This document shows positions 6,279-49,400 of a stretch of DNA of 64,000 bases, one piece after another. A program made the translations under genes and the position numbers. The notes below the pieces were generated by a model. It made no database searches, was not told the DNA's origin, and saw nothing but the letters and a program-made list of their open reading frames with translations. The first letter of the stretch is position 1, and each line of letters opens with the position of its first letter. The stretch lies in the NCBI GenBank assembly GCA_044892525.1, contig CM097885.1, forward strand, positions 32,862,001 to 32,926,000, given 5' to 3'. The stretch comes from Schmidtea polychroa. Lineage: Eukaryota.

Positions 6279-7262
6279 TTAATTTGATGAATTTCCGTCA
6301 TCGTTTTGAGAATCGCTGTAGTCTATTCTCCTTTTCTCTTTATAATTATGTCCATAACGTTTTTCAGATTCAACAGTTTTTTGTTGAACATTTAAACTTT
6401 TATCTTTTGTTTGATGTTTATTTTTAGTAATTTTTGATATTTGATATCTTAAACGTCTCGATTTAATGATATTTTTTACAGCATTCTTTTGTGAATTAGG
6501 TTTAATCTCTATATTTGGTTGGCTTCCTAGTTTATCATTTTCTTCAATTGCTAAGTTTTCATCGCTAGCATTTTTTACTTCGTTGTCTTTAACATTTTCA
6601 CAGGTTTTCGCTTTGACACATTTGACATTAAAAGTCGACATATTTACTTCTGAAACTTTATAATACATCGTTTTTCTAGGTAATGTTTGATAATCTTCAT
6701 ATGATTGTTCATCAGATTTTATGAATGTATTTTTAACAGAAGATTCAGTTTCATTTCTTACTAACTTTTCTTTATTTTTAATTTCGATTTTCATATTTTT
6801 GATTGCTTTTACAATTTCTAGAGATGATTCACTTTTGACTTCTGGTTTTTCTTTTAAAGCTTTACACTTTTTAATTTCCTTATTCTTTTTTTGTAAAGAT
6901 TCAGTAAAGTTGTCTATAGGTTTTCTATCTTTTACATCCCCTTTTTCCAATAATGTTTTATCAGAATTTTCTTTTAATTTTTGTCGTTTTTCTTTTTGAA
7001 TAGTATTACTAATACTTTCAGAAACAGGAGGTAATTTGTAAGTTCCGGTAGCACTGAAGTTTAATCCGGTGAGTCTTATTATCTCTCCAAGGTCGACAGC
7101 TCTTTTAATTGCCCATCTAATTTTGCTATCAAATTTAGGAGAAATTCCATAATTTTCATGAACATATGCTTTTATTACTTGAAAGGATGTACCATTTGTA
7201 GTATTTGAAGCTGAAATGGCATCTTTAATAATTTTAATATGAATCTGTTTTTCCTCCAACAT
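6279..7262 (-). CDS. linker histone H1/H5 (H15) domain protein, 327 aa, intronless
   Basis: N-terminal winged helix IIKDAISA..NGTSFQVIKAYVHENY..KIRWAIKRAVDLGEI..SATGTYKL followed by a long K/E/N-rich tail; ATG at 7262. Confidence 0.85.
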   Translation of the reverse strand: MLEEKQIHIKIIKDAISASNTTNGTSFQVIKAYVHENYGISPKFDSKIRWAIKRAVDLGEIIRLTGLNFSATGTYKLPPVSESISNTIQKEKRQKLKENSDKTLLEKGDVKDRKPIDNFTESLQKKNKEIKKCKALKEKPEVKSESSLEIVKAIKNMKIEIKNKEKLVRNETESSVKNTFIKSDEQSYEDYQTLPRKTMYYKVSEVNMSTFNVKCVKAKTCENVKDNEVKNASDENLAIEENDKLGSQPNIEIKPNSQKNAVKNIIKSRRLRYQISKITKNKHQTKDKSLNVQQKTVESEKRYGHNYKEKRRIDYSDSQNDDGNSSN

Positions 7263-8681
7263 ATTATCAAAATAGAACTTTTAACAATAATTATTACAAT
7301 TAAATTGAATATAAATTAAAATCTTGTTTAAATATTTATTTGATCTTTGTTATAACAATAAAAAATTATTTGAAATTTAAAAGAAATTTTCTATACAAAA
7401 AAAAATACAAATTATTTTGTATGAAAATTTAATTTTTAAAATAAAAATTTTGATATTAATCACTTTATTTTAAAATGTTGAATTAATATTCAATTAATTA
7501 AAGGTTAAAAATATTATAAAGCGAATGCTGAAATTAAAATAATAAATTATTTAATACTAAGTATTATTATAATAAATATTTTTTTTAGGTATCGAGCAAT
7601 ATTAAATTACGATTATTCAATTGAAGAAATTTTCTTATAATTAGGGCTTGGATTAAAAATAAAAATTATTATTAAAAATTTTAAGTCTAAATAATTAAAA
7701 TTAGAAATTTATCAAAAATTGTGTTAAATCTAACTAAAACCTTAAAATAGGTGACCGGCCAGTATGGTTTTTTAACCGTTTTGAATTTTAACCATTTAAA
7801 CGCCGCAAATTATTTGTACGGCTATACACTACATGCTAAGAAATTTCTAGCAAAAACAAAATCTAAAAACAGTTTATGTAATACTAAACACTATTAGCTT
7901 GTAAAATGAGAACGAAGTCAAATGCGTTTGAACTCTTATTGGGTATGGGTCATGTGACGTGCACGAAAATACAGAGCGAATTAACTCGCTTCTGTCGCCT
8001 AAAAGGTTTAAGAGCCAATAAAACTAAAATCAAAAGAATGTATACTTTGCAATTAGATAGTAGAAAATTAATGGGTATCTTTATGAATTTATTGATCTAT
8101 TGTCATAATAAGCAAAATTTTATTTCATTTATAAACTAAAAATTTCATTTCAATTTTTACCAAATATTTGAATGATTGAGAAATTATATATTTAAATCCT
8201 AAACAAACTTGTTATTATCTCAAAAGTGAATTGTTTCAAAACAAAATTTTATCTAAATTATGGTGTAATTATAAAGAAAAAGAAAATTTTAATTTGTAAA
8301 ATTGTCAATTTTATCTGTATAACAAATGAGAAAATTAATAATCGAAAAAAATATGACTATAGTATCAATTTTTTTAAAAACTCCGACTTGAAAATTAATT
8401 TTGGTTTTAAATATTTTTATTTTTTGTAAATAATTAATTTGACATAGACTCCATTATCTCTTTATTGTTTTGGGTTTTATTAAAAAATTTTACAAAATTT
8501 TCATTTTTAATATTTTTTTATCATTTAGGATTTAGTTATCTTTTAAAAGATTTAGTTTAAAATTTAAAATTTATTTAATTAAATTAAAATTTTAATAAGT
8601 TTCGTCAATGTGTATAAAGACGATAGAGAAAGTAGAGAGATATAATCACCTAGAAAACAAAGAATTATACATTATGTAGAT

Positions 8682-9650
8682 CATAGTTTCTTAACCTTGG
8701 GTCCATGGGTGATTTTTCGGGCGTCCGTCGACTACAATTTAATTCGAAATTTTCAAAAGTTTTTAGCTTCAATTTTATTACCAAACACAACAACAAGAAA
8801 ATAAAACCAGTGTAATTTTTTCAAATCAAAATAGTTTTTTTATTTATTATTTTTTATTTATTATTGCATTAGCAAAATTTTAGTACACCTATCCCCCGGA
8901 TTTACACGGTAGATACGTTCCTGAGAAAACCGTGTAAATCGAAAAGCTTGCAGAAAATGCATAATTTTGCTATTTAACAGTTGTGATTTTTTCAATATTT
9001 TTAGGCGTACACAGAAATAAAAATAAAATGCATTGAAAGGTTAAAATATGTAATATATTACGGAAACACTGTTTTTTTATTTAATTACAATACATTAAAC
9101 AGAAGAACAAAAAATAAAACCAAAGGTGTTTTATTATCCTTCATCACTATCAGAAATTACTCTCATTCTTTTTTTCGGAATCGAAGGTTGGAATTCATTT
9201 TCATCGCTCGAAGTTATTTGTGCCGATTCGATGTTTGAAGCAGAAATATTTACATTCTGAGAGGTGGTAATAAAATCGGTTATTAACAATTGCTTCGAAT
9301 TTTTTGTAAGATCTTTGTAAACTTCTTCAGCATTAGTAGAGTGCGATAAAAACAAAAAAAACTTATTTGAAAAACCGTGTAAAAGCGAAAACGTGTAAAA
9401 CAAGTACCGTGTAAATCGGGGGATAGGTGTATTTGAATTTTATTTTAATAGAAAGTATAATTCTGTAATAAAGTTAAATTCAATTTGGTAAAGCTTTTTA
9501 CAAAGTGATAGTTTTTATAAAGGTAAAATATTTTTTAAGTTTTAATAAAATACTTATTTGAAATGAATTTTTTTAATGCAAAATTTCATATGTTGAACGA
9601 AGTGCTTTCTGAAAAGAGATGTCGGATAGAATCCAGGTTAAGAAACCATG
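8682..9650. mobile_element. non-autonomous hAT (Charlie/Buster-type) MITE
   Basis: Inverted termini CATAGTTTCTTAACCT / AGGTTAAGAAACCATG; flanks ATGTAGAT and ATCTACAT (imperfect 8-bp TSD of the nTCTAGAn type). Confidence 0.7.
8886..9429 (-). mobile_element. pogo/Tigger-like deletion derivative nested in the hAT MITE
   Basis: TIR CACCTATCCCCCG(G)ATTTACACGGTA / TACCGTGTAAATCGGGGGATAGGTG, TA on both sides; retains a transposase-like C-terminal tail KQLLITDF..KKRMRVISDSDEG. Confidence 0.8.
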
Positions 9651-9658
9651 ATCTACAT

Positions 9659-12144
9659 CAGCGGTTCTCAACCTTTTCCTTAGATGTACCCCCAAGAGAA
9701 AAGGTATTTTGTGTGCGTACCTCTACCTAGAACAACATTTATAAATATTTATAAATACACTAATAACATACAATTATATGTGTAATGAACAGTACTAGTT
9801 GTAAACAAACGAAAATTTAATCAATGCGAACATTGAGCTTGTTTTGAGCTGCATAATTTTGCAATGTCAGGCTTTAATTTTGTCAGTTTTAGACGTAAGT
9901 CTGACTCAAGTTCAAGTTTCAATCTGTATTTATTTTTAATTGACAACATTGCAGAAAATCCAGTGTTCGGCTAGAAGTGAATTCTAAACCCAAATCTCGA
10001 AAATGTGACGACATAACACGCACACCTAGCTTTAAGTTTATTTAAATAAACTATATACAACACCAAATAAACAACGGTAATAATGAGTAAAAATAACAAT
10101 TTTCTACAAGTGTGTTCCATGTTAGCTTGATGAGGTAGAGTGGAAGAGTTATTGCGCTTAGGAAAAATCATTAAATTAAGGGACCGGAGCAAATCGGACA
10201 CGTATCTTCTATCGATAGTCCGTGAACCCAAAGAGTGTCCAACAATTATAGTGCAAATAGTGTGCACTCACCCTCTTGATACAGTACCAACGATGATCAC
10301 TCATCGGGTATCAAGCGAAGAAATTGTTATTTGTATTTCGGTTTACGCTGGTAACAGCACGAATAGGTAAAATGTATGCTTGCCTGTAACCCACCACCAA
10401 TTTCACAAATATATAAAGTACTGAAAGGAATTAAAACTATCAAAGCTCGGTCCAAAATTAATCCATATTCTCCTCTTCTTTTTAACCAGAAATCATTCAA
10501 GAAATCTTTGCTAAATTCACTTTTCAGTTCACCATCACATGAAAGGTCGATGAGCTGATCTCTTTCTTGTGCAGAAAAGTCAACTGGCAATTCAGCTTCA
10601 GCAAATGGATTTCGTATCCAACTTCTAACAACCAAATTTTCTGGAAAGTAGGACCTGAAATTCAAAATCAATTGCAAACAATGATTTTTTATATCTTCAA
10701 CCAAGTCTGGATGCATTGGAAGATCATTCTCTGTCAAAAATGTTTGCAATGACATGCCACTATTTTAAAATGTTCAACACGGACTTTATAAGCGTAAGCT
10801 TCTTAATTATTGCATTTACTGTCAGCAACCACAAATGGATTTATATTTCGACCTTGCAAACTCAAATTTAACTCGTTCAGATTACCAAAGATATCAGCTA
10901 AATAGACCAATCTCATTAGCCACAACTCATTCAAAAATAAGTCGCGTCTTTCATAGCTACTATCCATCAAAAACATTTGAGCTTCTTCGCGAAGTTCAAA
11001 GAGTCGAGTTAACACTTTTCCTCGTGACAACCATCTTACCTCTGTGTGCAAAAGAAGCTTCTTGTGATCACTCCCCATTTCATTACACAATATTGAAAAC
11101 ATTCGAGAGTTGAGAGCCCGAGCTTTTATTAAATTAACAACTTTAACTGATTCATCCAGAACGTGTTTTAAACTAGCAGGCATCGCTTTGGTAGCAAGAG
11201 CTTCACGATGGATACTGCCTTGGGTAAACATAGCTTCTAGTGCAACTTGTTGAAATTTGGTTACCACTCCTCCATGTTTGCCAGTCATTGCAGTTGCCCC
11301 ATAAGAGCAAATTCCAACACAATTTAGCCATTTACGGTCATGAAATTATAAAATTTTTTAAATATTTCTGTAGCAGTTTCCGACCAGCTAATGGCTCACA
11401 ACACTGAAATTCTTCTTCAACCGACTGTTCAAATTCATAGCTAACATACACCATCAGCTGTGAAAAGTTTGTAACATCTGTACTCTCATCTAACTGAATC
11501 GCAACGAATTTGCTCTGCTGAATTTTTTGAATGAGAATTGATTTAACTTGTGCTGCTAATTCGTGAATTCTTCGAGAAACAGTACTATCGGACAAAGGAA
11601 CGACATCCAGTTTCTTGACAGCATTTGGTCCTAGTACAGATGACACAATATCTTTTGCTGCAGGCAATATCAGAGTCTCCCCTATTGTATACGGTTTTCC
11701 AGTTTGAGCAATTCTCAGACTGACCAAATATGATGCCTCCAAGCTTTTCGAATTAACTGATGTTAATAGTTTCAGTGTGTTTATACCGTTTAATTCATTT
11801 TCTTTTCTTTTAAAAAATTCGAGTGGTTTATCCTTGAAAATTGCATGCTTTGTATTGAAGTGACGCTGAAGTAGTGAAGGCTTCATCGAATGATACGATA
11901 ATTTTTCAGCACATATGACACATTGAGGCTTTGGATTTCTTTTTTTGCCACACCACGAAAATCCAAAAAATAAATAATTATCATCATATCGCCTAATTTT
12001 TGGCAGTTTTCGATTGTGATAATCTGAGTCTCGATCAGTTCTATCTTCACTGGCGTCGGCGGCTGTTTGTGTTGTTTCAGTGCTTGTGTGTGCGGCGAGA
12101 GAGTACTTTCTTTTTGACGGTTGTTGTTTCAGTCATTTATCCAT
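9659..12144 (-). mobile_element. hAT Buster/Charlie (ZBED5/SCAND3-like) transposon with disrupted transposase
   Basis: Terminus CAGCGGTTCTCAACC at 9659; transposase from MDK*LK (12144) through MKPSLLQRH, QLDESTD, IHREALA, HTEVRWLSRG, WIRNPF, IPFSTLYICE to TGFSAM..KQAQCSH* (9821); several frameshifts and an insertion. Confidence 0.92.
9964..10399 (-). mobile_element. ~436-bp insertion, probable solo LTR, inside the hAT transposase
   Basis: Splits the conserved YICE|TGFS motif; TG..CA ends; on the minus strand AATAAA lies shortly before a terminal AACA; no clean TSD. Confidence 0.45.
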
Positions 12145-12709
12145 ATCTCAGTTTTGAAGTTATATATTTAGTTGTAAATGTTAAATAATCATTAAATATT
12201 TTACGGTTTACATATAGAGCGACGTTTGGTAGTCACACAGATTAACAAAGACCTTATACAGTATGAAGTTTTGAACCATAGAATTGCCAAATACTATTTA
12301 TTGAAGTTGATGCTGGTTATCGTTTATTTACAATTTAAATTTCAATATTCCATGATTAACTGAATTAAATGTCTGATAGATCATTGAACAGTTATACAGT
12401 TGTTAATAAAATGTAACAATCTAAAAATTTAATTCAAAAAATTTGACAGTATATTTAAACAAAAATGCTAACTAAAACTAAATGTTAAAACAAACGTTTT
12501 AATGATTGTTTATTTATTTCTTATAAATAAACGCAACACCTGGAAAATCACTACAAACATGAATAACAAATGTATGTGCAAGGTCTTAATTATAAACACA
12601 AACTATTAACTTAAGATGAATTGAAAATGTTATTATTCGTTTTATTAATCGGTTCAATATTTGAAATATATTACACAAAAATAATTTGAAATAAAAATTT
12701 ATTATCCGT

Positions 12710-13685
12710 TTTCAAGAACGAAATAAAACCAGATGTATTTGTCTATAAAACTAGGTAATTATTGGCCCCCTGTAGCAACGTCCCCCTCGCCAACAGTCAA
12801 CACTAAAGAAGAAAGCAATGAAATCATCAATTTGATTTGTAGTTTTTACTTTATTAATAGCTTTTATAAAATAATTAAATTAAATATTTAAAAAGTAATA
12901 ATTTGAAATAATATAGAAAATAGATAAAATATAATTTTAGAAGATCATTAGAATTTTAAAATCGAAATATAAACATTTTTTAAAATATTTAAATTGCCTA
13001 TATAAATAAACAAGTTTGCAGATATTTTTATTCTGTGATTTAGCGAATTTACAAGTAAATTTACAAGCGTCTCCTGCATAGTACTGATGAGAGCCAAAAT
13101 CTCGAAACTAGTCTACTATTTTAGATTCTTAAAAGTTGTTTATTTATTACCAATTACACACATGCACGCGTACAGTCAGCATTCTACTTCTAAAGTATGT
13201 ATGTATATATTAAAATTATATAGTTTTTATTTGATAGAGTGATGGCCTGTTTATAAGTCTATATAATAAAACTATATAGTCTGTGTGATTTTATCTACAT
13301 ATTTATTAAATTACTAATAGTAAAAAATCTAGAACGCCTATCTTTTGCAGAATCTTTTACGTCGGGGTTTTTACATCAAATCTTTATAAAGTTTTTCAAC
13401 ATCTTTTATTGTACATTTTTACACCTCATTATTTTTTCACATGGCCTGTTTTTAATTTTGTTTAATCACAATGTTTATCACAATTTCAAGAACGAAATAA
13501 AACCAGATGTATTTCTATAAAACTAGGTAGTTATTGGCCCCCTGCAGCAACGTCCTCCTCGACAACAGTCAACACTAAAGAAGATAATTTACATTTTTAC
13601 ATTTTTACATTTTTACACCTCATTATTTTTTCACATGGCCTGTTTTTAATTTTGTTTAATCACAAATGTTAATCACAATTTCAAG
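12710..13685. repeat. interleaved local direct duplications (A 12710-12812 = A' 13484-13584; B 13412-13490 = B' ~13606-13685)
   Basis: Direct sequence comparison; B/A' junction shares TTTCAAG; (TACATTTT)x3 at the A'/B' junction. Confidence 0.85.
13078..13119 (+). ncRNA. minimal type I hammerhead ribozyme
   Basis: ATAGTA-CTGATGA-GAG(CCAAAAT)CTC-GAAAC-TA-GTC-TACTAT: 6-bp stem I, canonical core, 3-bp stem II, palindromic minimal stem III, GUC cleavage triplet. Confidence 0.8.
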
Positions 13686-13801
13686 CGTCTTTCTCAACCT
13701 CTTTTGTTTCTTTAACCTTTAGACGCGTAAAGCGACTATGTCGGTGAATTTATTTTCCTCTTCGACGCGTTAAGCCGAATTTTTTGAGCCCCTCTCCCCC
13801 A

Positions 13802-13821
13802 ATATATATACAAATATATAT

Positions 13822-13894
<73 letters not shown>
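13802..13894. repeat. (TA)n microsatellite
   Basis: Direct observation. Confidence 0.95.
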
Positions 13895-13896
<2 letters not shown>

Positions 13897-14106
13897 AATG
13901 TAACAGATTCCTAACAAAATGACGTATGGTAATTATAAATATTTTAAACAATTTATTTAAATTTAATTATAATGATTGCAAAAATTCGGTTTAATATACC
14001 TATAAATTTAGTCATACTTATTTGGATTTTTTTTCAAAATATCGTCATAAAAATCATAAAAATATTTATAATATTTAACATTAAAAAATTGAAAATATTT
14101 TGGCTT

Positions 14107-14919
14107 TTAAATTGTATTCTGAAACCACAAATGATTGAGGAATTCATTCAAGTTTATTCTGTCCTCAGGGTTAAAAGCTAAACATTTGTCAATCAGGTTT
14201 CTGGCATTTTCTGAACATTTGTAATATGGGATAGAAGTTATATTCTCATAATCATTCTCGGTATTAAAAAGTAATCTTTTTTCAATGGAAATATAAAGTA
14301 AACATCCAATTTCGAAAACCATATTTTTCTTGATATCGTATGTCTTTTCTTTGACTGCCTCATAGCTTGAATATCCGAGAGTACCAATCCATCCACGACG
14401 TTTAGGATTTTCGTTTAATTTCTCATAAAGGGAACTTTCGAAGTCTATAAATTTGATATTGTAAGTTATACTATTTATCATAATATTTTTATGTTTTATA
14501 TCTAAATGATAAACACCTTTACTGATTAATTTCTCTAAACCTTTGATTACATTTGTTATAACCTTTCTCATCATAATTTCACTTATTACATTTGTATTAA
14601 TAAACTCTAGCAAGTCCATCCAATCTCCATTGAGGTTTTCCATAATAATTGCAAATTCTGTCTCAGACTGAATACAATCTAAAACTTTCGGACTGAAATT
14701 TTCTTTTTCAATAAAATCTAGAAATAATAATTCATTTGGTATTGGAAACGGATAAACTTTATTTCGAATAAACAAATAATCTTCAGATTTTAAGAAACAT
14801 TTAATGACAACAGTTTTATGATCTAGATTTTTGTTCGATTTGTTTTCAGCTTTATAAATTATGCTCTTTTCGGTATCATGGATTATTGAAATTAATTTAT
14901 AATTTTTATTATTAATCAT
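14107..14919 (-). CDS. divergent PIM-like Ser/Thr protein kinase, 270 aa, intronless
   Basis: VVIK, IPNELLFL, WMDLLEFI, YHLDIKHKNIMI, IKFIDFE, IGTLGY, CLAFNPEDRINLNEFLNHLWF. Confidence 0.85.
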   Translation of the reverse strand: MINNKNYKLISIIHDTEKSIIYKAENKSNKNLDHKTVVIKCFLKSEDYLFIRNKVYPFPIPNELLFLDFIEKENFSPKVLDCIQSETEFAIIMENLNGDWMDLLEFINTNVISEIMMRKVITNVIKGLEKLISKGVYHLDIKHKNIMINSITYNIKFIDFESSLYEKLNENPKRRGWIGTLGYSSYEAVKEKTYDIKKNMVFEIGCLLYISIEKRLLFNTENDYENITSIPYYKCSENARNLIDKCLAFNPEDRINLNEFLNHLWFQNTI

Positions 14920-15539
14920 TTTTTGTTTAAGTTAATTAATTAGATTTTAATTTTTAAATTGAAATAATATTATAAAATAATTTATTTAATGTACATTTGA
15001 TTGGATAAAATTTAAACAATTTATTATTTATTGTTTTTAGTTTTTGTGAATTTTGCAATATATTGCTTATTGATAAGACGTAATTATAAAATTGGGACCT
15101 CAAAATATGCATTGTGATATTATAAAAAAACATTAAAATATTAAAAACTTTTTCTGATAAATCCGAAGCTAGATACACTCAAAGAACAAGTGATAAAGGA
15201 GTCTGAGAAAATTTAAGTTTTAGTTCTATATATTTGAACATAAAACTAAGAAACATATTCTGGAGTAACACATAACGAAAAAATTAACAAGTGGAATAGA
15301 ATTTTTGACACCAAAGTAGGTAGTTAGTGGCTTACCGCAACAATTACCCCCCTAGGGGGGGTGGGGGTAAATTGTTGCAACTTTTTATTACGCAATTGTT
15401 GCAACTCACATTTTTTGCTTTCAGGGAGTTTTAGTACAAATTTTTTTTTATCAGACTTTAGTTGGTGGTTATTCAATATTTTGAAAATAAATTTAAAAAT
15501 CTTAGTTTAATTTACTTATTACATTACTTATTTAAAAAT

Positions 15540-16362
15540 TATTACTTTAATTTACTTTTTTAAAATTCTTGACCATTCATTACTTAATTTTAAAATTTGG
15601 ACCTTAATTAACTTTAATTTAATTTTTTAGTTCCTTAATTTACTTTAATTTAAAATTTTGAACCCTAATTAACTTTAATTCAAAAATCTGAACCTTATTT
15701 TACTTTAAGTTAAAAAATTTGGACCTTAATTTATTTTAATTTTAAATTTTGAACCTTAATAAACTTTAATTCAAAAATTTGGACCTTAATTAACTTTTAA
15801 TTTAATTTTTTAGAACCTTAATTTACTTTAAGTTAAAAAATTTGGACCTTAATTTATTTTAATTTAAGATTTTGAACCTTAATTAACTTTAATTCAAAAA
15901 TCTGAACCTTAATTTACTTTAAGTTAAAAAATTTGGACCTTAATTTACTTTAATTTTAAATTTAACCTTAATTCAAAAGTTTACCACGCTTTTTTATTGT
16001 AGACCACCTTTTTCTATTGAAATTCTCAGTACCAAGGAGACCCACCTTAATTTACTTTGAAAATTCCATGCTTTTTTAGTGGTAATTCAAATATGTATTG
16101 AAAATATCCTGAAACCTTGTATTACCACTGTTTTTTAGTGTAGACCACCTTTTTCTATTGAAGTTCTCAGGACCAAGGAGACCCACCTAATTTTAATTCG
16201 AAAATTCCATGCTTTTTAGTGGTAATTCAAATTTGTATTGAAAATCCCTGGATTAATCGAGACCCCCTCACTATAGTCTGAAAAATCCATGATTTTTTAG
16301 TGGTAATTCAAATTTGTATTGAAAATCCCTGGATCAATCGAGACCCCCTCACTATAGTCTGA
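15540..16362. repeat. internal tandem arrays of the Maverick-like element (~30-bp, ~140-bp and ~79-bp units)
   Basis: GGACCTTAATTTACTTTAATTTTAAAATTT-like unit repeated ~15540-15970; TAGACCACCTTTTTCTATTGAA..GGAGACCCACC x2; TCCATG..GAGACCCCCTCACTATAGTCTG x2. Confidence 0.85.
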
Positions 16363-16483
16363 AAAAAAAATTTGTACTAAAAATCCCTGAAAGCAAAAAA
16401 TGTGAGTTGCAGCAATTGCGTAGTAAAAAGTTGCAGCAGAAGCCCCCCCCGGGGGTCATTGCTGCGGTAAGCTACTCACTACC

Positions 16484-17846
16484 TACTGAAAGGAATTAAA
16501 ACTTTCAAAGCTCGGTCCAAAATTAATCCATATTCTCCTCTTCTTTTTAACCAGAAATCATTCAAGAAATCTTTGCTAAATTCACTTTTCAGTTCACCAT
16601 CACATGAAAGGTCGATGAGCTGATCTCTTTCTTGTGCAGAAAAGTCAACTGGCAATTCAGCTTCAGCAAATGGATTTCGTATCCAACTTCTAACAACCAA
16701 ATTTTCTGGAAAGTAGGACCTGAAATTCAAAATCAATTGCAAACAATGATTTTTTATATCTTCAACCAAGTCTGGATGCATTGGAAGATCATTCTCTGTC
16801 AAAAATGTTTGCAATGACATGCCACTATTTTAAAATGTTCAACACGGACTTTATAAGCGTAAGCTTCTTAATTATTGCATTTACTGTCAGCAACCACAAA
16901 TGGATTTATATTTCGACCTTGCAAACTCAAATTTAACTCGTTCAGATTACCAAAGATATCAGCTAAATAGACCAATCTCATTAGCCACAACTCATTCAAA
17001 AATAAGTCGCGTCTTTCATAGCTACTATCCATCAAAAACATTTGAGCTTCTTCGCGAAGTTCAAAGAGTCGAGTTAACACTTTTCCTCGTGACAACCATC
17101 TTACCTCTGTGTGCAAAAGAAGCTTCTTGTGATCACTCCCCATTTCATTACATAATATTGAAAACATTCGAGAGTTGAGAGCCCGAGCTTTTATTAAATT
17201 AACAACTTTAACTGATTCATCCAGAACGTGTTTTAAACTAGCAGGCATCGCTTTGGTAGCAAGAGCTTCACGATGGATACTGCCTTGGGTAAACATAGCT
17301 TCTAGTGCAACTTGTTGAAATTTGGTTACCACTCCTCCATGTTTGCCAGTCATTGCAGTTGCCCCATAAGAGCAAATTCCAACACAATTTAGCCATTTAC
17401 GGTCATGAAATTATAAAATTTTTTAAATATTTCTGTAGCAGTTTCCGACCAGCTAATGGCTCACAACACTGAAATTCTTCTTCAACCGACTGTTCAAATT
17501 CATAGCTAACATACACCATCAGCTGTGAAAAGTTTGTAACATCTGTACTCTCATCTAACTGAATCGCAACGAATTTGCTCTGCTGAATTTTTTGAATGAG
17601 AATTGATTTAACTTGTGCTGCTAATTCGTGAATTCTTCGAGAAACAGTACTATCGGACAAAGGAACGACATCCAGTTTCTTGACAGCATTTGGTCCTAGT
17701 ACAGATGACACAATATCTTTTGCTGCAGGCAATATCAGAGTCTCCCCTATTGTATACGGTTTTCCAGTTTGAGCAATTCTCAGACTGACCAAATATGATG
17801 CCTCCAAGCTTTTCGAATTAACTGATGTTAATAGTTTCAGTGTGTT
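16484..17846 (-). pseudogene. near-identical duplicate of hAT transposase segment 10419-11781
   Basis: Constant 6065-bp offset, same frameshifts, only two substitutions noticed (ACTATC/ACTTTC; CACAAT/CATAAT). Confidence 0.95.
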
Positions 17847-18239
17847 CCTACAGGGGGTCATTGCTGCGGTAAGCTACTAACTACCTACTCACCAACAATC
17901 CAGAAGATCAAATATTCTATATATTTCCGGTTAATTTGAAATGTCTTTTTCTAAACTTCAATCGACCTTCAAATTCGTCCAACTGGTCATCTTAAGTTAG
18001 ATGAGGTCAAGGAACATAAATAATTTTTGATTTATTTTAAGAAGTCTTAAATTATGTATATACAAAATATAAAATAAAATATTTTTTTTAAAGTAAAAAT
18101 TTCAATTTTTATATTAAAATGTTTATATTTATTTTAATTGCTAACGTTCTAAAATTGAAACATGACGTCATACAGAACAAGAAATTCTAATCAAAAAAAA
18201 TTATTATTGTAATTATTGTGTAACATTGGTAAGATAATG

Positions 18240-18289
18240 GGGTTGTGCATACCCATAGGGGTACGCGTACCACCGGTTGAGAACTTCTG
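18240..18289. mobile_element. hAT (Buster/Charlie-type) terminus, possibly the far end of the 9659 element
   Basis: GGGGTACGCGTACCACCGGTTGAGAACTTCTG is inverted relative to CAGCGGTTCTCAACC at 9659; TSDs do not match. Confidence 0.5.
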
Positions 18290-18299
18290 GGATAGATAA

Positions 18300-18916
18300 T
18301 GTTTCTGAATAATTTGAAAAATGAAGTTTGTAAATATTTTGAAGTACTACAGGTTTCATTAAAAAATTATTTCAACATGGATGGAAAATGAAATCAGCTG
18401 TGGATCGTAATCCATTTCTTTGTGATATTGACTGTAGCGATAATACTGATCTTATCGATCTTAGATAAAAGTCTTTGTTAAAAATGGATTTTGATTCAAA
18501 AACACTTGGAGAATTCTGATCTCTTTAGTGAGAAAAGCCTATGTTTTGCTTATAAAAGGATCTATGAAGGCTGTAATTCCATTTGAAACAGTTTACCTTT
18601 GCGAAACAGGCTTTTCCACACTTATAACGATGAAGACAAAAAATCGAAAAAGTTTGAATGCCAAACATGGTATGCGCGTTGCTTTGTCATACCAATCCCA
18701 AAATTCAATTTATTAACTAAGTAAAAACAGCAACAGTCTTCACATTATTAATTTGTTGATGATTTTGAAATATTAATAATAAAATTAAATATTTTATAAT
18801 AATTGATGTTTTTTTAAATTTTTTATCGTTTTATATATTGAAAAGGGGCTGGGCTCCAAATTTTAAAAAGAAATTATAAAAGGTATTCATTACACCGAAA
18901 AGGTTAAGAAACACTG
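18300..18916 (+). mobile_element. 3' part of a second Buster/Charlie hAT transposon
   Basis: IPFETVYLCETGFSTLITMKTKNRKSLNAKHGMRVALS..KQQQSSH; terminus AAAAGGTTAAGAAACACTG at 18916 followed by ATGTAGAT. Confidence 0.8.
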
Positions 18917-19665
18917 ATGTAGATTGTGAGCCAGGTTACTTTTTGATGCGTCATGAGAGCTCATTGTTGATTTTTTCAGAGATAAGATTGAATTGACCTG
19001 ATATTTTGTACCAAAACATAAAGTGAAGTCTGAAAGGTGTAAAATTAAATGTAATTAAATTATAAATTTTTTAAATAATTTTTATTAAAAGTATTTGTTA
19101 CTAAATTTATCAGTATTTAATTAATATTAAGATTTACCAAAGTGCTTCAGAAAAGACTTTGGAAAATTATAAAATAGCACAAATTTGAATAAACAAATTT
19201 TGTAATAAGAATAATAAAGTTTAAATTAACATATTTTTTTTGTATATTTTTCCACGGTTTAAGAGTCTTTTAAGGCTAGGAATCGCATTTATAACAACTA
19301 AATGAAAATAAGAATATTCAAACAAATTAACAACTAATAATCGTAATCAAATTGTATCAAACTAAAAAATATTTTAAATAACAATTTCTTCTTTGTGAAA
19401 ATAAAAAAACATTTTTTAAAATTATTTTAATTTTTTAAAAAACGTACAAAATTTTTAACAATCTCATACATAATTTTTTTTTAAATTAATTTAAAAATTA
19501 AAAATTGTTTTCATACAAAAGATTCCTAAAATTATCACTAATGTGGGTCAATACATTCCGTCGGCAATGCTCAAGGACTCGAGTTCAGAGATGATGGGTA
19601 ATGGCATTACACCCATTACATGAAAATTTATACACGAGCTCTGAACGCAGACCAAAAATCGGTAG

Positions 19666-22047: not shown

Positions 22048-22747
22048 TGTTAAATAGGAATAAAATAATTTTATAAGAACTTTTTCAAATTTTCACCACT
22101 GATTTCTTTTCAATTGACATTGTATTTATTAAACAACTTGACTATAAATCAGAAAATATATCGATGTTTTTTATATTCACGAATTTTTTGATAAAATAAG
22201 TGATTTTGATGAAATATTACTTAGAGTTGAAATCTAAATGAAGATAAATCAAATCCAAAAATAAATTTTTACATCTAGCTTAAACAATTTTTGCCCTAAT
22301 TAAACAGGTTACAATGTTTGAACTTGCATAAACTTATAATTTGCTTAAAATGATAAATAAATTAAATGAAATATAATATTTTCCACATGTCAAATTGTAT
22401 TTGGACAACATGTACTTTTGATAATTACTGTTGACGTTTTCGAACGAATATTTATTGTGTATTAAAATCAATCTCTCTCTGGTGTCACTTTTTGTAATGT
22501 AAATTGTAAATAAATTTTCGTTCTGTGTTAATTTAAACGAAATAAGTAATACATTTTATAAATATTGATTTTCTCGTTAATTAACAAGTTAAATCCATCT
22601 TTAGATCCATCTTTAAATTTGCAGCAAAAATCTCGAAACTAACAATATATATTTAATCAAAGAATTTCTAAATAACAAGTTTTAATTAATTCGCAAAACC
22701 GCCAATTCCAAATTATTTAAACAAACAGATATCTAACTCTCCCCTTC

Positions 22748-23816: not shown

Positions 23817-24599
23817 TTAAAAGGAAAACAATTCTTTTTCTCTTCTTGATCTGTGGTGACTAAATTGGTCCTCTGGTAGTCTTCTTTGTGATGATGTATG
23901 CATGGGATCTTGGGTATTCTTTTGAATTCTCATCTTCCATCCCTCAGTCACGCTAGCGTATGTTCTTTGACCGATTGCTTTAATAAATTCTGTTTTATGG
24001 TTTCCATTTTTGTTACTTTCAAAAATTTTCGCCAATGATCTCGTTTCTTCAATTTTTGTTTCTGGTTTCGTCAATAGTATCTCTCTCAGTCTCGCATCGC
24101 GTGCTTTATTTGCGATGAGATCTTGAACAATATCTTCTTCTGATCGTCCTGAATTTATAACTTCAGCTAAAGCTTTCCTTAGCCGTATTTCAAAAGCTGC
24201 AAACCTTTCATCATCTTCCTGTTCCATAGCTGCCAATTCTCTGATTTTGTCAGTTATTGATTTTGTAATTGTGAACGTATTTAAGAACCACGCTTTGGCT
24301 TTTACATCTGTTGTTTCTGTTTCTCTGACGTTTCCCCACAATGTCTTTGCTTCTGCCACTAATAACACATCGAAAGTGCTTGTCAATCGCTGTCCATTTG
24401 TCAGCAACCATTCTTCTATATCCCTGATCCATTCTTCGGCTTCTTTTAAACCTCGTCCATCATATCGTCTGATGTTCAATGTGAGCATGTCTTGGCATGA
24501 TTTCGGTAGGCATTCCATTAGCGATTTTGTCGATTTTGAAATGGCGTTGATATTTTGATTTTCGGCGTGGTCGCCAGTTAAATCCATCTTTAGATCCAT
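23817..24599 (-). CDS. gag-like protein of the LTR element
   Basis: 260-aa ORF starting in the 5' LTR; YDG..AEEWI and QEDDERFAAFEIRL (major-homology-region-like). Confidence 0.75.
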   Translation of the reverse strand: MDLKMDLTGDHAENQNINAISKSTKSLMECLPKSCQDMLTLNIRRYDGRGLKEAEEWIRDIEEWLLTNGQRLTSTFDVLLVAEAKTLWGNVRETETTDVKAKAWFLNTFTITKSITDKIRELAAMEQEDDERFAAFEIRLRKALAEVINSGRSEEDIVQDLIANKARDARLREILLTKPETKIEETRSLAKIFESNKNGNHKTEFIKAIGQRTYASVTEGWKMRIQKNTQDPMHTSSQRRLPEDQFSHHRSRREKELFSF

Positions 24600-25502
24600 C
24601 TTTAAATTTGCAGCAAAAATCTCGAAACTAACAATATATATTTAATCAAAGAATTTCTAAATAACAAGTTTTAATTAATTCGCAAAACCGCCAATTCCAA
24701 ATTATTTAAACAAACAGATATCTAACTTAACAATTAATAAATATCTAATTAATGTATAGAAGTTGTCAGATCTATGCACCTATCGATGATTCATTGTATT
24801 AAATTCAAATTTTATCATAAATGCAATTTTTATTTCGATGTGAAATGAAAATCAAATTTTCTCTAGGGAATGATGCATAATTTGTCCATTTTCGCCAATG
24901 AGTTCATTTCAAACTTGTTTATATTTTTATTATAAAATGATATGATATGTAATTTTCCCACGAATTCTCATTTTTTGTCTTTAATAAACTTTAAACTTGT
25001 AGCAAGGGCTTATCATGTAACTTACTATTTATATTATTGTGGATTGATACAGAAAGCCATAGTTTTATATAATTTTTTTATTGTGATATTTGAAAAATAT
25101 ATTTGTTTAAATAATTAATGTTGAATTTGACAGCACCCTTTGATAATTTGTGGGAATTCAAATAAATGTCAAAATAGATATTGATAATGATTTCCTTTCA
25201 TTTTTAAGAAAACCTTGGACCTTGCTCTACTAGTTGCAACCAAGGATGCTTTCCCAAAATTTATCAACCGGTTCGCAGTGATATTTTCTTACAAATTTTT
25301 TTATTTTTTTAATATTAATATTTCCATCAAAATATTATGGTTTGTCAGAGTAGCAGACTAAGTCAAGAATATTTAACTATCGTTCAGATTCTTTGCAACA
25401 ATAATGTAATAGGATAAAAGAGAATAAAAAAATAATTCAACGAGGTAAAAATCACTTTTATTTTATTTATTCATTTCAAGAGATACAAAATTTACATTAA
25501 AA

Positions 25503-38300: not shown

Positions 38301-40350
38301 ATTTCAACGACACAGGAAAATAAAAGGAAGGAAAAAGAAAACTCACGAGTTAAAGAGTTTTAAATTTAAATTTAACCAAAAATTTGCTAGGAAAATAAAG
38401 ATATAAATGAATTATAATTAAAGTGAACTTGCATTCGGCAGTTGTATCTATACAATATTTACAACAGTTGAAAAAACTTTTAAAGTGCAAATATTAATAA
38501 TTTTATATCTGTCGTTTATTTGTTCAATAAATTTATAAAGTGTGACTTACTGTTTTGATACTCAACAATGCGTGAAGTCAATGTCATTCAATAAAGACAG
38601 TACTGAAATTTTGTGTTGTATAGAAATTTAATTTTTGACCTTTTCTCATAATGAAAATAAATAAAATATCAATAAAAAGGAAAAAGCTTTTACTGATAAA
38701 TAAATTTGTTCCTATTTGTCTAATAAGACATCAAATATTAAGAAAAATTTATATATTATAATTGTGAGGTGTTTTGTAATTTGTATTAAAATAATGGTAT
38801 GATGTTGTGCATGTTTGATTGTATGCTGAAATCCTTACTTATACATTAATTATTATTTTTTAGAAACTCCTCAAACAAATTAACGTTATAATTTGTTTTA
38901 ATAATATTTGTGTTATAATAATAAACGTGTTAATATAGTTTTAGTTATGGATTCTATTAATACCCGTAGCTCTGTAGCTAATATGGCGACCACGATTGCA
39001 AATTTTATCAAACCACCAAAAACATATGACATGGATTCAAACGTAGAAGATTTCATCTTAGAAACGGAACGATTCTTCGAGATGACAAATATTGTCGATG
39101 AATACAGAAGCAAATTCGTCAAAGCTTTTCTATCAATCAATTCAAATATGAGTTGACTAATGAAACTCTGCATTATACAGAAAGATTAAGTAACGCTTTT
39201 GCTAAGAACAGAAGTCTTATCGATGATCTCAACGAAGCGCTAAATTAGTGTCAAGGAAATGAGGCTGCCGAAGAATTCTGCTCAAAAATTGAGAAACTTG
39301 CAAAAAATATTTTGAAGCATAAACTGGAGGAAGAAGAACTAAAGAAGTTTTTGCTATTCAATTCGCTTGAAGATAAAGAAGTTAAAAAATATCTCAAAAT
39401 GCAAGATTTAAAATCATTTGATGAAATGAAAGAAAGATTAAAGAAACACGATCAAATTTCAAAAGAAATTAATGTATTTCATGCTGATGTAGCTTCAATG
39501 AATTAAACACAAGAGCTTACCAAGATATAGTTATGATAACAGATCAATTCGAGAACGAGAAGCTAATCCAAGATTCAAAGATGAATATACAAGAGAACCT
39601 CAACCTAATCCAAGATTCAAAGGCGAACTTACCAGAGAACATCGATATGCTATTTCAAATGGATGGAAATCTATGAATAGAAGTAAGCCTTATAATACCA
39701 GGGAATTTCAATCACGAGATAATGTCCGAGCAAACATAAATCATGGAATTTCGGGAAGGAATTTATGTTGAATTCAACTTTTCAAAAAACTATTAGGAAG
39801 ACTCCAGCTGAAATGGTGTTTGGGAAAAAGATTCATAGTCAATGGTTCTCAGAAATTGTGGAAGAAGAAAAAATCAATCAAACGACAAATCGCGAATTGA
39901 TCAAAGTAAATGTTCGAAATAAAGGTGATAACCGATACATGGGTCCAGGTGTGATTACTAAAAAGATTCATGATCGAAGTTTTTTAATAAAATTGGAAAA
40001 TGGAAGTTCCGTCACGAGAAATATTAAGTGGTTAAAGGTTTTTAAAAAGTGGGGATGTGAGGCGTTTTGTAATTTGTATTAAAATAATGGTATGATGTTG
40101 TGCATGTTTGATTGTATGCTGAAATCCTTACTTATACATTAATTATTATTTTTTAGAAACTCCTCAAACAAATTAACGTTATAATTTGTTTTAATAATAT
40201 TTGTGTTATAATAATAAACGTGTTAATATAGTTTTAGTTATGGATTCTATTAATACCCGTAGCTCTGTGGCTAATAATAATAATTACAAAAAAATTATTA
40301 TTAAAATACTGAATCCCTTATAGGCTAATAACATTTTGTAATTATTTTTG

Positions 40351-46400: not shown

Positions 46401-49400
46401 TAATCTACGTTAAATACATATAGGAAATTTGAATTTGATAAAGAGGTGGAAACAATACGATTTTCCAAACAACTTTTCAAATTAACTAAAGTTGAGTCAG
46501 AAACTTTAATAACAATTTCAATGACACCTGAAGAATTGATGTCTCGATAACCTCACGTTTCTTTCAAGGTTTCATTTGGCATATCGGGTAGAAATAAATC
46601 GCCAACATAATTGGCATTGCACAAAAATGTCATAAGTAGTATTAATAAAGAAATGCAGGCCCAGATTTCCAGATTTTTCTTCGAATTTGAAAAACTCCTT
46701 GAGAAAAAATAATTCCATCGGAATATTCCGTGAACCAATCGTTGATAATATAATTCATAATTAATTAATACAAAAAAAATAGCCAAGTAACTTTAATTTG
46801 TATATTCGCATAAAATTTAATAAACTGATTATACAAACAAAAACTTTTTTTATTATAACACAATTGTTTTCTTTTTATTTACATAAATGTTTTTTATCCA
46901 ATTTTAAGTTTTTGATTAACTCACTACATTTACTCTGTGTCACTTATGAAAAATATTGGTCTTAATAAAAAATTTAGTTTTAAAAATAAATAAATTTTTA
47001 AGACTAAATCTTTTATTAAGACCAATATTTTCCATAAGTGACACAGAGTAAATGTAGTGAGTTAATCAAAAACTTAAAATTGGATAAAAAACATTCAGTA
47101 AAATTAAAATTAAAATCAAAAATTAAAATTAAAATTAAAATTAAAAATTTGTAAGGATGAGCATTGCAGACCATAGTCGACAAAATGTTATGATTTTAAT
47201 TATTTATATTTAATTCAAATTTTTTTTGAAAAATATTTAGTTTATGAAAATTTACAGTCAAATCCCAATATAACTACATATACATTTATGACCACACTAT
47301 TATCAAGACAGTTGAAAAAGTTATTCATCAAACGAAGCTAATAATTAAATATGTATATAAAGTAGCTCAAAATAAGTTTGAATGTACAAAATATTAAATT
47401 TGCAAATCTATAAATTTATAAAATTCCAAAATTAATTAAAAAATTTGAAAAAAATCAAAATGACGTATTCCGCGGGAAATTTGTATGTACAGATAGCTAA
47501 CGTTGAGACGAGCACAGATATACTAATATGAAACCGACGAGGAAAAAATATATTCAATAAATACAAATTAATTAAAAATAAATAAATAATTTATTAGTTA
47601 TGTGAAAAATCCGAACCATATAGAAAACCTGAGCGGTAAACAAGAGGAAAATGAAATTAGGTCTCCTTTCAAGATCAATAAATATGATTAGCTTTGAATT
47701 AGCGAAATGAACCTGTGAACAACGACGAGAGGGCACCTGTTCTATTATTTTGTTTTCCAGAATTTAAGTCGATATCTAATTCAAGCGGGATGAACAACAA
47801 TAAAAGTTAAAACGATACTGTTGGGCATATGCTAGTTGGTCGAACAGATGAAACTATGATATGTTCATTAAAGACTAAAAAGCTTACAAGTGTTAAATAC
47901 AGGGTTATTCTAAAATATATTTAAAATTATCTAACAATATATTTAAATTTATTCAACAATATATTTAAAATTAATCAACATTATATTAAAAGTTATTCCG
48001 CAATGTATTTAAAATATTCCAAAATTTAATTTAAAATTATCCAACAACATATTTAAAATTTTTAAAATAGAAAGGAAATATTTTTATTACCTTTAAAAAA
48101 CACTTTGTTAGCCATATAATTAAAAATCGATATCTAAGAAATAAATTATTTATTTTATAGGATTTAAAAATTATTTTTTTGTATCCATGTTTAGTGACGA
48201 ATACGATTTTTTTGAAAACGATTTAAAGGAAAATTCCGCACCGAATGCCAGAAAAAAGCGAAGCACCATAACTCTTGACATGCTTAAGAGCATAAGAAAA
48301 TATTTAGAGAAGAATATTTCTGTAAAAGAAATCGCTGAAAGCGAGAAAATTACCTTGCAATGTGCATATAATATCATTAAAAAAATTTATGATAATATGA
48401 GTGACGAGGAAATACTTCAAAAGAAAAAAGGACGAAAGAAAGAAAATAAAACTGAAGATAAAAATCAAATATTCCAGTTTTCTAAATATATTGTTGGATA
48501 ATTTTAAATATATTGTTGAATAACCCTGTAAAATTGGTAAGAAGAGAAATATCACTGCGAAATCTGATAAAAGCGGTGTCCCTTAGAGTATCAAACTAGT
48601 AAAGGAGCTATTTCATGAATTCGAAAAAATATTGTTCTACTTTTAGAAAATAACAGAAAAATTAATATTCCTGTTTGTGAGGTGTTTTCAGCTGAGAATT
48701 AAATATTTCAATGATTTATTAAAATAATTTTAAATGATAAATAATTGACTATTTAAAATAATTTTTAAAAACATTTTAAATTGAAATTTTTAAATTTTTA
48801 AATTAAAAAATTAAACAAGCTTTTATTAGTAAAAAATTTTTAAATAAATATATTTTAAATATAGAAATTTTAATAAATGGTTTTTGAAATATTTTATTCA
48901 ACGCTGAAAATTTGTTTGAAAATTATACAATATTTAATTAAATAAATATTTGGAATTATGACTTAAATTTTGAACCGGATTTAAAAAATAATTTAGAAGA
49001 TTAGCAGATTCTAATACTGTTGAAGAATGTAAGGTAAATAATAATTCATTTAAAAATTTTCGTGATTTAGATAAAATGGTATACGGAAAAGAGAAGATGA
49101 TATTTGTGTAAATGGAACAGTACTTAAAATGATTTGAAAAAAAGTGGCTTTAAAAATATCTATTAAAGATTTTTGTGCGTCTAACGGTTGGTTAGATATT
49201 TTTAAATCAAGTCATAAGTTGTTGTTCAAAAACATCTGTGGTGAAATCAAATCGGGTTTAGATGAATTTTACTTTGCAAATTATAAATATGTTTTAGAAT
49301 ATGGGTAACGTAACATATTTAACTGTGATGATACGGCGTTATTTATAAAAGATTTTTCACCTAAATATTTTGTTGAGAAAAGTGACAGTTGTAATGGAGC

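What the first reader, a model, noticed from the sequence alone, without database searches (positions are those of the whole stretch)
15309..17895. Miniature Maverick/Polinton-like element with a doubled right end that has captured 1.36 kb of neighbouring DNA
Seen: TSD CACCAA, left TIR (AGTAGGTAG...), tandem arrays, full right TIR ending 16487, a near-identical same-orientation copy of 10419-11781, a second 43-bp right terminus, then TSD CACCAA. The TSD encloses the whole 2575 bp, so the cargo appears to have integrated with the element as one unit, yet it sits outside the first right TIR. The TIR/cargo junction has 4-nt microhomology (TACT) and the donor carries no insertion scar. Known: Polintons have 5'-AG..CT-3' ends, long TIRs, 6-bp TSDs and protein-primed replication. 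Inference: template switching during terminal replication or integration repair could let non-coding mini-Mavericks transduce local DNA between duplicated ends.
Basis: partly seen in the sequence, partly recalled or inferred. Interest (0 to 1): 0.8.

Follow-up and report, generated by a model that had tools for sequence, protein, structure and literature searches.

The report
Repair scar inside Polinton-ended mini-transposon
A small gene-less jumping element with Polinton-like ends holds a 1.4-kb copy of a dead transposon lying 3.5 kb away plus a second copy of its own tip, and this is likely a one-off DNA-repair accident after the element had landed, not cargo that travelled with it.

Summary
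The structure is real. The 6-bp TSD, left TIR, right TIR (R1), 99.85% copy of 10419-11781 and second right end (R2) are as described. A zero-mismatch contig in run X4 bridges cargo and R2 at about single-copy depth.

Two corrections. The cargo runs to 17851, so R2 is 37-38 bp, not 43. The cargo keeps family-type letters where the local donor differs.

R2, not R1, touches the TSD in 4 of 4 runs and starts at the tip of a GC hairpin in the TIR. Removing 16451-17852 leaves a plain 1,173-bp element with the same TSD. The likeliest history is insertion first, then a break at the hairpin repaired by template switching onto the nearby dead hAT. This works like single-copy Pack-TIR gap filling (PMC8277862). 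The TSD therefore does not show that the cargo moved.

Polinton identity is plausible (about 0.7) but no autonomous partner was reachable. The left TSD and R1|cargo junctions were not read-tested. The scan noted a similar one-off capture in another element of this genome (e1-9506022, unchecked). Interest is modest.

The parts
15309..15314 (+). Left copy of the 6-bp target-site duplication (CACCAA)
15315..15462 (+). Left TIR, 5'-AG start, with a C/G-run hairpin about 20-65 nt from the end; carries GTTGC/GCAAC motifs
15530..15973 (.). AT-rich 30-bp tandem array (14.8 copies)
15981..16366 (.). 141-bp (1.9 copies) and 81-bp (2.1 copies) subterminal repeats; the body 15315-16487 has no stop-free frame over 60 codons
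16351..16487 (-). Right TIR as now seen (R1). 16351-16450 is the inner TIR; 16451-16487 is inferred to be a re-synthesised copy of the tip. Predicted hairpin stem 16433-16465 with loop 16448-16450
   Evidence: re-synthesis is inference
16484..16487 (+). 4-nt microhomology (TACT) shared by the element end and donor 10419-10422
16484..17851 (-). Cargo: 1,368-bp internal piece of a frameshifted ZBED5/SCAND3/FAM200-type hAT transposase gene, homologous to 10419-11786; no start, no intact frame
17852..17889 (-). Second right end (R2): one unassigned A plus 37 bp of TIR starting at the first base of the hairpin's outer arm; inferred to be the original integrated end
17890..17895 (+). Right copy of the TSD; flank contigs of X3 and X5 end exactly at 17890 (X4's aligns from 17890 with 5 letters left over)
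10419..11786 (-). Local donor: part of a dead hAT copy (terminal repeat at 9659, coding remains about 9840-12150); differs from the cargo at 10439, 11088, 11782 and 11783

Best explanation
This is a gene-less TIR element of a high-copy family, likely Polinton-derived, that likely inserted as a plain 1,173-bp unit and was later broken inside its right TIR and repaired by copying nearby DNA. Steps: (1) inferred: an integrase acting in trans joined the left end and R2 to the target and made the 6-bp TSD; (2) inferred: a break or fork stall occurred at the tip of the GC hairpin 37 bp inside the right end; (3) inferred: the left broken end re-synthesised the last 33-37 nt of the TIR from a sister or family copy, giving R1; (4) shown as sequence, inferred as process: it switched through the 4-nt TACT microhomology to the dead hAT 6,065 bp upstream and copied 1,368 bp; (5) inferred: it rejoined the old right stub, R2, with its TSD. 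The result is a single-copy, locally templated 1,402-bp insertion with no working gene. It has the anatomy to be moved later as a unit, but nothing shows that it has been.
For: Offset arithmetic: R1 and R2 are 1,402 bp apart and removing 16451-17852 restores one TIR and both TSDs. R2 homology begins at the base right after the predicted hairpin loop 16448-16450; family contigs also diverge there, with 34-62 loose ends per run before 17853. R2-type letters sit next to the TSD in 4 of 4 runs with 0 differences, and R2 shares with the left end the letter at which R1 differs. The donor ends 3,522 bp from the left TSD. Cargo and local copy are 99.85% alike, while listed family contigs differ by 10 of 315, 4 of 221 and 12 (plus 3 gaps) of 262 letters, and both lack a T at 10779 that carries 1451.5 of 1453.9 depth in X4, 201 of 201 in X1 and 60.2 of 97.1 in X5 (0 of 97.5 in X3). 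The cargo|R2 contig has depth 258 against 191 for R2|flank and 248 for the flank in X4, whereas the TIR tip sums to about 411,000. Microhomology of 4 or more has p = 0.0037. PMC8277862 (introduction and passages) reports the same signature for single-copy Pack-TIRs: 160 of 281 within 15 kb of the parent, microhomology in 190 of 281, breaks inside the element.
Against: No cargo-less allele at this site was seen directly. The cargo|R2 contig was listed in only 1 of 4 runs, but the local donor's own version of that stretch was not counted in any run either, so absence says little. The switch falls within 4 nt of the element's terminus, which this model treats as chance or as run-off from a linear template. 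R1 and R2 differ at 1 of 37 letters. The cargo keeps family-type letters at 11782-11783 where the local copy differs (Arg in 4 of 6 homologues and the cargo, Ile in the local copy), so the template was not the local copy exactly as it reads today. The R1 hairpin is no more stable than shuffles (z = -1.0, 34 of 200 fold as well; left end z = -2.8, 3 of 200), and its link to the junction was noticed after the fact. Contig depth is no copy number by the tool's own warning.
Confidence: 0.6

Rival explanations
1. Capture before or during integration. A free or nearby copy of the element primed synthesis from its exposed right end on the hAT, regained a right tip, and the 2,575-bp molecule was then integrated as one unit close to the donor.
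For: The switch lies at the terminus itself (16483-16487), as expected of a free end. A perfect TSD flanks the whole. Flank contigs of X3 and X5 stop exactly at 17890, which suggests a second allele such as the empty site and so a recent insertion. FoSTeST is described for Ssk-FB4 (PMC8277862 passages).
Against: It needs the product to land 3.5 kb from its donor. The cargo junction is at about single-copy depth. The multicopy, transposed Pack-TIRs of PMC8277862 lay far from their parents. A TSD is equally expected under the best explanation.
Confidence: 0.2
2. Read-through from another haplotype or single-end attack. A family copy once sat with its right end joined to 10423 of the hAT on another chromatid or haplotype; repair of the break in this element copied through that copy's end into its flank. 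No switch at TACT is then needed. This resembles maize Ac composite insertions.
For: It explains an exact terminus at the junction, the R1/R2 mismatch, and a cargo that differs from the local donor at 4 letters with family-type states.
Against: TACT becomes a coincidence (p = 0.0037). The window's donor has no TIR or TSD. It needs two insertions of the family within 5 kb. The joints table shows no such allele, but 515 rows were cut.
Confidence: 0.13
3. Assembly or polishing artefact: the structure is a chimera of a collapsed repeat, or two ordinary hAT paralogues were made near-identical by polishing so that the 'local donor' is an illusion.
For: The left TSD and R1|cargo junctions were not read-tested. 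Three of the four donor/cargo differences lie within 21 nt of the tract ends, as polishing could leave. No contig with the local donor's letters at 11756-11782 was counted in 4 of 4 runs.
Against: A 92-nt, zero-difference contig in X4 spans cargo|R2. Exact R2|flank contigs occur in 4 of 4 runs. The TSD is exact. Local-type sequence is at about twice single-copy depth in X3 (97.5 against 47-49) and X4 (433.7 against 187-191) (weak). X4 may or may not be the assembly's source.
Confidence: 0.07

Closest known systems
Single-copy Pack-TIRs of animals made by transposition-independent gap filling (Tan et al. 2021, PMC8277862; introduction, passages and supplement search seen)
   Same: One copy, donor within 5 kb on the same chromosome, microhomology at a junction, break inside the element, TE ends and TSD kept.
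   Different: The cargo is a dead transposon, whereas Pack-TIRs are defined by non-TE cargo. The junction duplicates the element's last 37 bp instead of deleting a little. The host element has Polinton-like ends; 'Maverick' and 'Polinton' do not occur in that paper's main text, and in its 12 supplementary files only once, as a column head.
Polinton/Maverick elements (PMC8097293 and bioRxiv 10.1101/2023.08.22.554363; passages)
   Same: 5'-AG...CT-3' ends, first five letters of the (AGT)2 motif, 6-bp TSD, TIR of 137-148 bp (reported range 100-1500).
   Different: No pPolB, integrase, ATPase, protease or capsid gene; 1.2 kb instead of 13-25 kb; sixth letter is G, not T; TIRs only 84% alike; no autonomous partner shown.
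FoSTeST multicopy Pack-TIR Ssk-FB4 of Drosophila (PMC8277862; passages)
   Same: Repetitive TIR, template switch to nearby DNA by short microhomology.
   Different: Ssk-FB4 was moved away from its donor and amplified; this one lies beside its donor at about single-copy depth.
Ac/fAc composite insertions of maize (PMC4270019; passages)
   Same: Transposon ends flank a copy of neighbouring DNA, with a TSD outside and a short-microhomology junction inside.
   Different: They need two nearby elements and reversed ends, and copy the DNA that flanks those elements; here the donor has no element end and the two right ends point the same way.
Maverick cargo genes of nematodes, wasp and krma (bioRxiv 10.1101/2022.07.12.499685; passages)
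   Same: Foreign DNA held just inside a TIR.
   Different: Those are coding cargo in near-complete elements that move between species; this is a dead local fragment in a gene-less element.

Membership tests
Polinton/Maverick (non-autonomous derivative) | 5'-AG...CT-3' termini with a short repeated end motif such as (AGT)2 or (AG)3 | tested here: inconclusive
   AG/CT ends and AGTAG present at all three ends; the sixth letter departs from (AGT)2. The terminus is sharp: 40-72 contigs per run leave it at 17889 with unrelated flanks, agreement 0.41-0.43.
Polinton/Maverick (non-autonomous derivative) | 6-bp target-site duplication | tested here: met
   Exact at length 6 only, at this one site. Other copies could not be tested.
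Polinton/Maverick (non-autonomous derivative) | Long TIRs (100-1500 bp) | tested here: met
   148 and 137 bp, 83.8% alike.
Polinton/Maverick (non-autonomous derivative) | Termini shared with an autonomous pPolB/integrase element of the same genome | not testable with these tools
   No genome held; 0 hits in viral contigs and metagenome contigs; 0 look-alikes among scan findings.
Polinton/Maverick (autonomous) | pPolB, integrase, ATPase, protease and capsid genes | tested here: not met
   Longest stop-free frame in 15315-16487 is 60 codons; the cargo frames are hAT.
Single-copy Pack-TIR (gap filling) | Captured sequence between the ends of a TIR element, with TSD | tested here: met
Single-copy Pack-TIR (gap filling) | Captured sequence is non-TE | tested here: not met
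   The cargo is a ZBED5/SCAND3/FAM200-type hAT transposase fossil (donor ORF search; alignment). It works like a Pack-TIR but falls outside the paper's definition.
Single-copy Pack-TIR (gap filling) | Nearby parent and microhomology at a breakpoint | tested here: met
   3,522 bp away; 4-nt overlap, p = 0.0037.
Single-copy Pack-TIR (gap filling) | Cargo-less element at the orthologous site in other lineages | tested here: inconclusive
   R2|flank in 4 of 4 runs, cargo|R2 listed in 1 of 4; contigs cannot prove absence.
Multicopy Pack-TIR (FoSTeST) | Several copies with distinct TSDs, far from the parent | tested here: not met
   Junction depth 258 against 191-248 for the flank in X4 (one run, rough measure); parent 3.5 kb away.

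The most novel reading that the evidence does not exclude
Free ends of Polinton-type mini-elements prime DNA synthesis on nearby chromosomal DNA through a few matching bases, regain a terminus at the TIR hairpin, and are integrated with the captured piece. Doubled ends would then mark a general entry route for Maverick cargo, and other copies of this thousand-fold family would show doubled ends around different local DNA, some of them amplified.
Probability: 0.15. Interest if true: 0.65.

Novelty: new variant of a known kind. Interest (0 to 1): 0.3.

Why it matters
As a repair scar it is one more case of local capture inside a TIR element, with a dead cargo and no function. Its value is as a clean record of the first step by which a Polinton-ended element could gain cargo: both outer ends and the TSD are intact, so a helper could in principle move the 2.6-kb unit. 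How Mavericks take up cargo is not explained in the passages read from bioRxiv 10.1101/2022.07.12.499685. If a genome-wide search found many doubled ends with different cargo, the question would become directly testable in this genome. One locus does not do that.

Tried and rejected
No whole genome is held, so the TIR could not be searched genome-wide and no hAT phylogeny could be built. TIR motif scans found 0 matches in viral contigs and 0 in metagenome contigs. Sequence look-ups in the scan's findings gave 0 windows for the left TIR and for the right arm; nothing was noted near this place; a word search gave 0. Pfam gave no family for 3 of 3 hAT frames; the hAT call rests on the homologue search. 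The broad read-laying on 9500-19000 was swamped by the arrays (515 joints, 5,378 loose ends and 89,472 pieces not shown), so no empty-site or cargo-less joint could be seen; both laying calls are spent. Missing cargo|R2 contigs in X1, X3 and X5 are not used as evidence of absence. Rejected: LTR element (the repeats are inverted); hAT identity of the host element (6-bp TSD and AG ends; hAT 8-bp TSD recalled); left TIR as template for R1's tip (left and R2 differ at 3 of 37 and R1 adds a fourth); cargo as a working gene (23-40 stops in each reverse frame). Literature: a search for six phrases naming non-autonomous or mini Polintons gave 2 papers, of which one was opened and concerns Tlr1; a search on duplicated ends with templated insertions gave 0; some searches were seen as listings only, apart from the papers named. 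Subscription papers and Repbase are not searched, and non-autonomous Polintons are recalled from Kapitonov and Jurka 2006 (not held, recalled), so absence from print is not established. Supplements of bioRxiv preprints were not seen.

Full report
Observation. CACCAA stands at 15309-15314 and 17890-17895 and is an exact duplication at length 6 only. Between the copies lie 2,575 bp: a left TIR from 15315, arrays of 30, 141 and 81 bp, a right TIR (R1) ending at 16487 that is 83.8% like the left over 148 columns, a copy of 10419-11781 with 2 substitutions in 1,363 letters, and a second right end. The terminal 25-mer occurs 3 times in the window and never in 100 shuffles. The 4-letter overlap TACT joins R1 to the cargo; such an overlap is found at 0.37% of positions in the local hAT.

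Correction 1. The second end (R2) has 37 bp of TIR homology, 17853-17889. The five letters 17847-17851 are still hAT: family contigs in X3 and X4 align to 17851, and contigs in all four runs read CC at donor positions 11782-11783 where the window's donor reads TA. At the protein level the cargo has Arg there, as do 4 of 6 homologues (the other two have Lys), and the local copy has Ile. The cargo is therefore 16484-17851, equal to donor 10419-11786, and only 17852 is unassigned. Correction 2. The donor has no TIR or TSD, but it is not free of changes at the end point: besides 11782-11783 it lacks three letters at 11788 that most family depth carries (256 of 288 in X3, 1241.5 of 2076 in X4, 75 of 105 in X5, 69 of 105 in X1). 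Whether that is a scar or a subfamily trait is open.

Is it real? No genome is held. Seven public runs were listed and four were laid. In X4 one 92-nt contig with no difference spans 17791-17882, with 61 letters on the cargo side and 31 on the R2 side. It was listed in 1 of 4 runs. Exact contigs of 52-59 nt join R2 to the TSD and flank in 4 of 4 runs, though below the 31-letter bridging rule. Flank contigs of X3 and X5 end exactly at 17890, which suggests a second allele there, probably the empty site; this is inference, since its letters were not shown. The left TSD and R1|cargo junctions were not tested. One point against: no contig with the local donor's own letters at 11756-11782 was counted in any run, and the X4 contig does not break where donor and cargo part. 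Graph simplification can do this. If 26 of its 62 words were shared with the donor, its depth would be about 1.42 x 191 = 271, against 258 seen (my arithmetic). I leave 0.07 for an artefact.

The host element. The body has no stop-free frame over 60 codons. The terminus is sharp and very common: 43, 72, 40 and 43 contigs leave it at 17889 into unrelated AT-rich flanks, and summed depth on the tip is about 59,000, 411,000, 13,400 and 10,700 against 49, 191, 14 and 42 for this site's junction (X3, X4, X5, X1). That points to hundreds to thousands of ends, though summed depth is no copy number. Whether most are 1.2-kb elements or the ends of larger ones is unknown. The ends fit Polintons in the AG/CT dinucleotides, five of six letters of the (AGT)2 motif, the 6-bp TSD (PMC8097293, passages) and TIR length (bioRxiv 10.1101/2023.08.22.554363, passages). 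Earlier scan notes describe abundant Polintons and gene-less satellites in this genome, probably a flatworm (unchecked). No autonomous partner with these ends was found in the collections I could reach. I put Polinton descent at about 0.7.

The cargo. The donor's first frame matches ZBED5/SCAND3/FAM200-like proteins, the best at 73% identity, a hAT transposase group (family placement recalled). Both copies are broken in the same places. Listed family contigs differ from them by 10 of 315, 4 of 221 and 12 of 262 letters, and both lack a T at 10779 that dominates in X4, X1 and X5. The cargo thus belongs to the local copy's lineage, although the template was an earlier state or another haplotype of it.

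How it most likely arose. R1 and R2 are 1,402 bp apart. Taking out 16451-17852 leaves one right TIR and a 1,173-bp element with both TSD copies. R2 is the end next to the TSD and agrees with the left end at the one letter where R1 differs, so R2 is best read as the original end. R2 starts at the base after the predicted loop (16448-16450) of a C/G hairpin in the TIR, the place where family contigs also diverge (34-62 loose ends per run before 17853). The hairpin is not more stable than shuffles for R1 (z = -1.0) but is for the left end (z = -2.8). The simplest history is: insertion; break or stall at the hairpin tip; re-synthesis of the last 33-37 nt; switch at TACT to the hAT 6,065 bp upstream; 1,368 bp copied; rejoining to the old stub. 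At the second junction the family-type hAT and the TIR share a CCG that would give a near-seamless join, one letter off from what is seen (inference). The TSD encloses the cargo only because the event took place inside the ends. Confidence 0.6.

Rivals. Capture by a free end before or during integration (0.2) explains why the switch lies at the terminus, but needs the product to land 3.5 kb from its donor. Read-through from a second family copy that sat at 10422|10423 on another haplotype (0.13) explains the exact terminus, the R1/R2 mismatch and the family-type letters, but makes TACT a coincidence. A cargo-less allele at this site separates the best explanation from the first rival.

Comparison with what is known. 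It works like the single-copy Pack-TIRs of Tan et al. 2021 (PMC8277862; introduction read whole, other sections as passages): 160 of 281 lie within 15 kb of the parent, 190 of 281 have microhomology, and breaks are inside the element. It is not a member by their definition, because the cargo is a transposon fossil. It differs in duplicating the element's tip and in the Polinton-like host; Maverick and Polinton are absent from that paper's main text and appear once, as a column head, in its 12 supplementary files. Maize Ac composite insertions (PMC4270019, passages) need two elements with reversed ends. Polinton TIRs left as direct repeats by rearrangement are known from C. elegans eri-6/7 (bioRxiv 10.1101/2024.01.15.575659, passages). 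Coding cargo inside Mavericks is known from nematodes (bioRxiv 10.1101/2022.07.12.499685, passages). PMC3014272, PMC5499653 and PMC6431247 (passages) added nothing on this structure. My searches for non-autonomous or mini Polintons and for doubled ends with templated insertions found no matching description, within a library that lacks most subscription papers.

Verdict. A real, probably single-copy repair product in a gene-less element with Polinton-like ends: a new variant of a known kind, interest 0.3. The bold reading, that such ends capture local DNA and carry it, has probability 0.15 and would deserve 0.65.

Noticed in passing
window 9659-18289: The element may lie in a 5.75-kb block (about 12372-18124) nested in the same hAT that gave the cargo. 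A hAT-type end at 18275-18289 matches the end at 9659 in 13 of 15 letters, and contigs of X3, X4 and X5 join 12371 to 18125 (only 18-21 letters on the short side, weak). The outer 8-mers do not form a TSD.
   Followed up: partly
window 15315-15462 and 16351-16487: Left and right TIR differ in a concerted way: at three repeated motifs the left has GTTGC/GCAAC and the right has GCTGC/GCAGC. This suggests fixed left/right types or a chimera of two subfamilies, not random decay.
   Followed up: partly
window 14107-14931 (-): Intronless 274-codon protein kinase frame (PF00069, E 1.5e-29) 380 bp left of the TSD, at several times single-copy depth in the laid runs. It lies outside the TSD; its origin was not studied.
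   Followed up: no
window about 9965-10395: A roughly 430-bp insertion interrupts the 3' end of the local hAT frame about 25 bp from the cargo's first junction; part of it is very high-copy.
   Followed up: partly
window 13067-13120: High-copy 54-bp piece whose loose ends in X1, X4 and X5 read like U1 snRNA (motif recalled, not searched), so possibly part of a U1-derived repeat.
   Followed up: no
window 6279-7280 (-): 333-codon frame with a linker histone H1/H5 domain (PF00538, E 4e-12).
   Followed up: no
window 46867-47114: Near-perfect palindrome, 121-nt arms, 92% complementary, 6-nt spacer.
   Followed up: no
window 12742-12812 and 13514-13584; 38763-38983 and 40056-40276; 22587-22738 and 24576-24727: Further direct repeats: a 71-nt local duplication, and two pairs (221 and 152 nt) that look like LTRs of small or deleted retroelements.
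   Followed up: no
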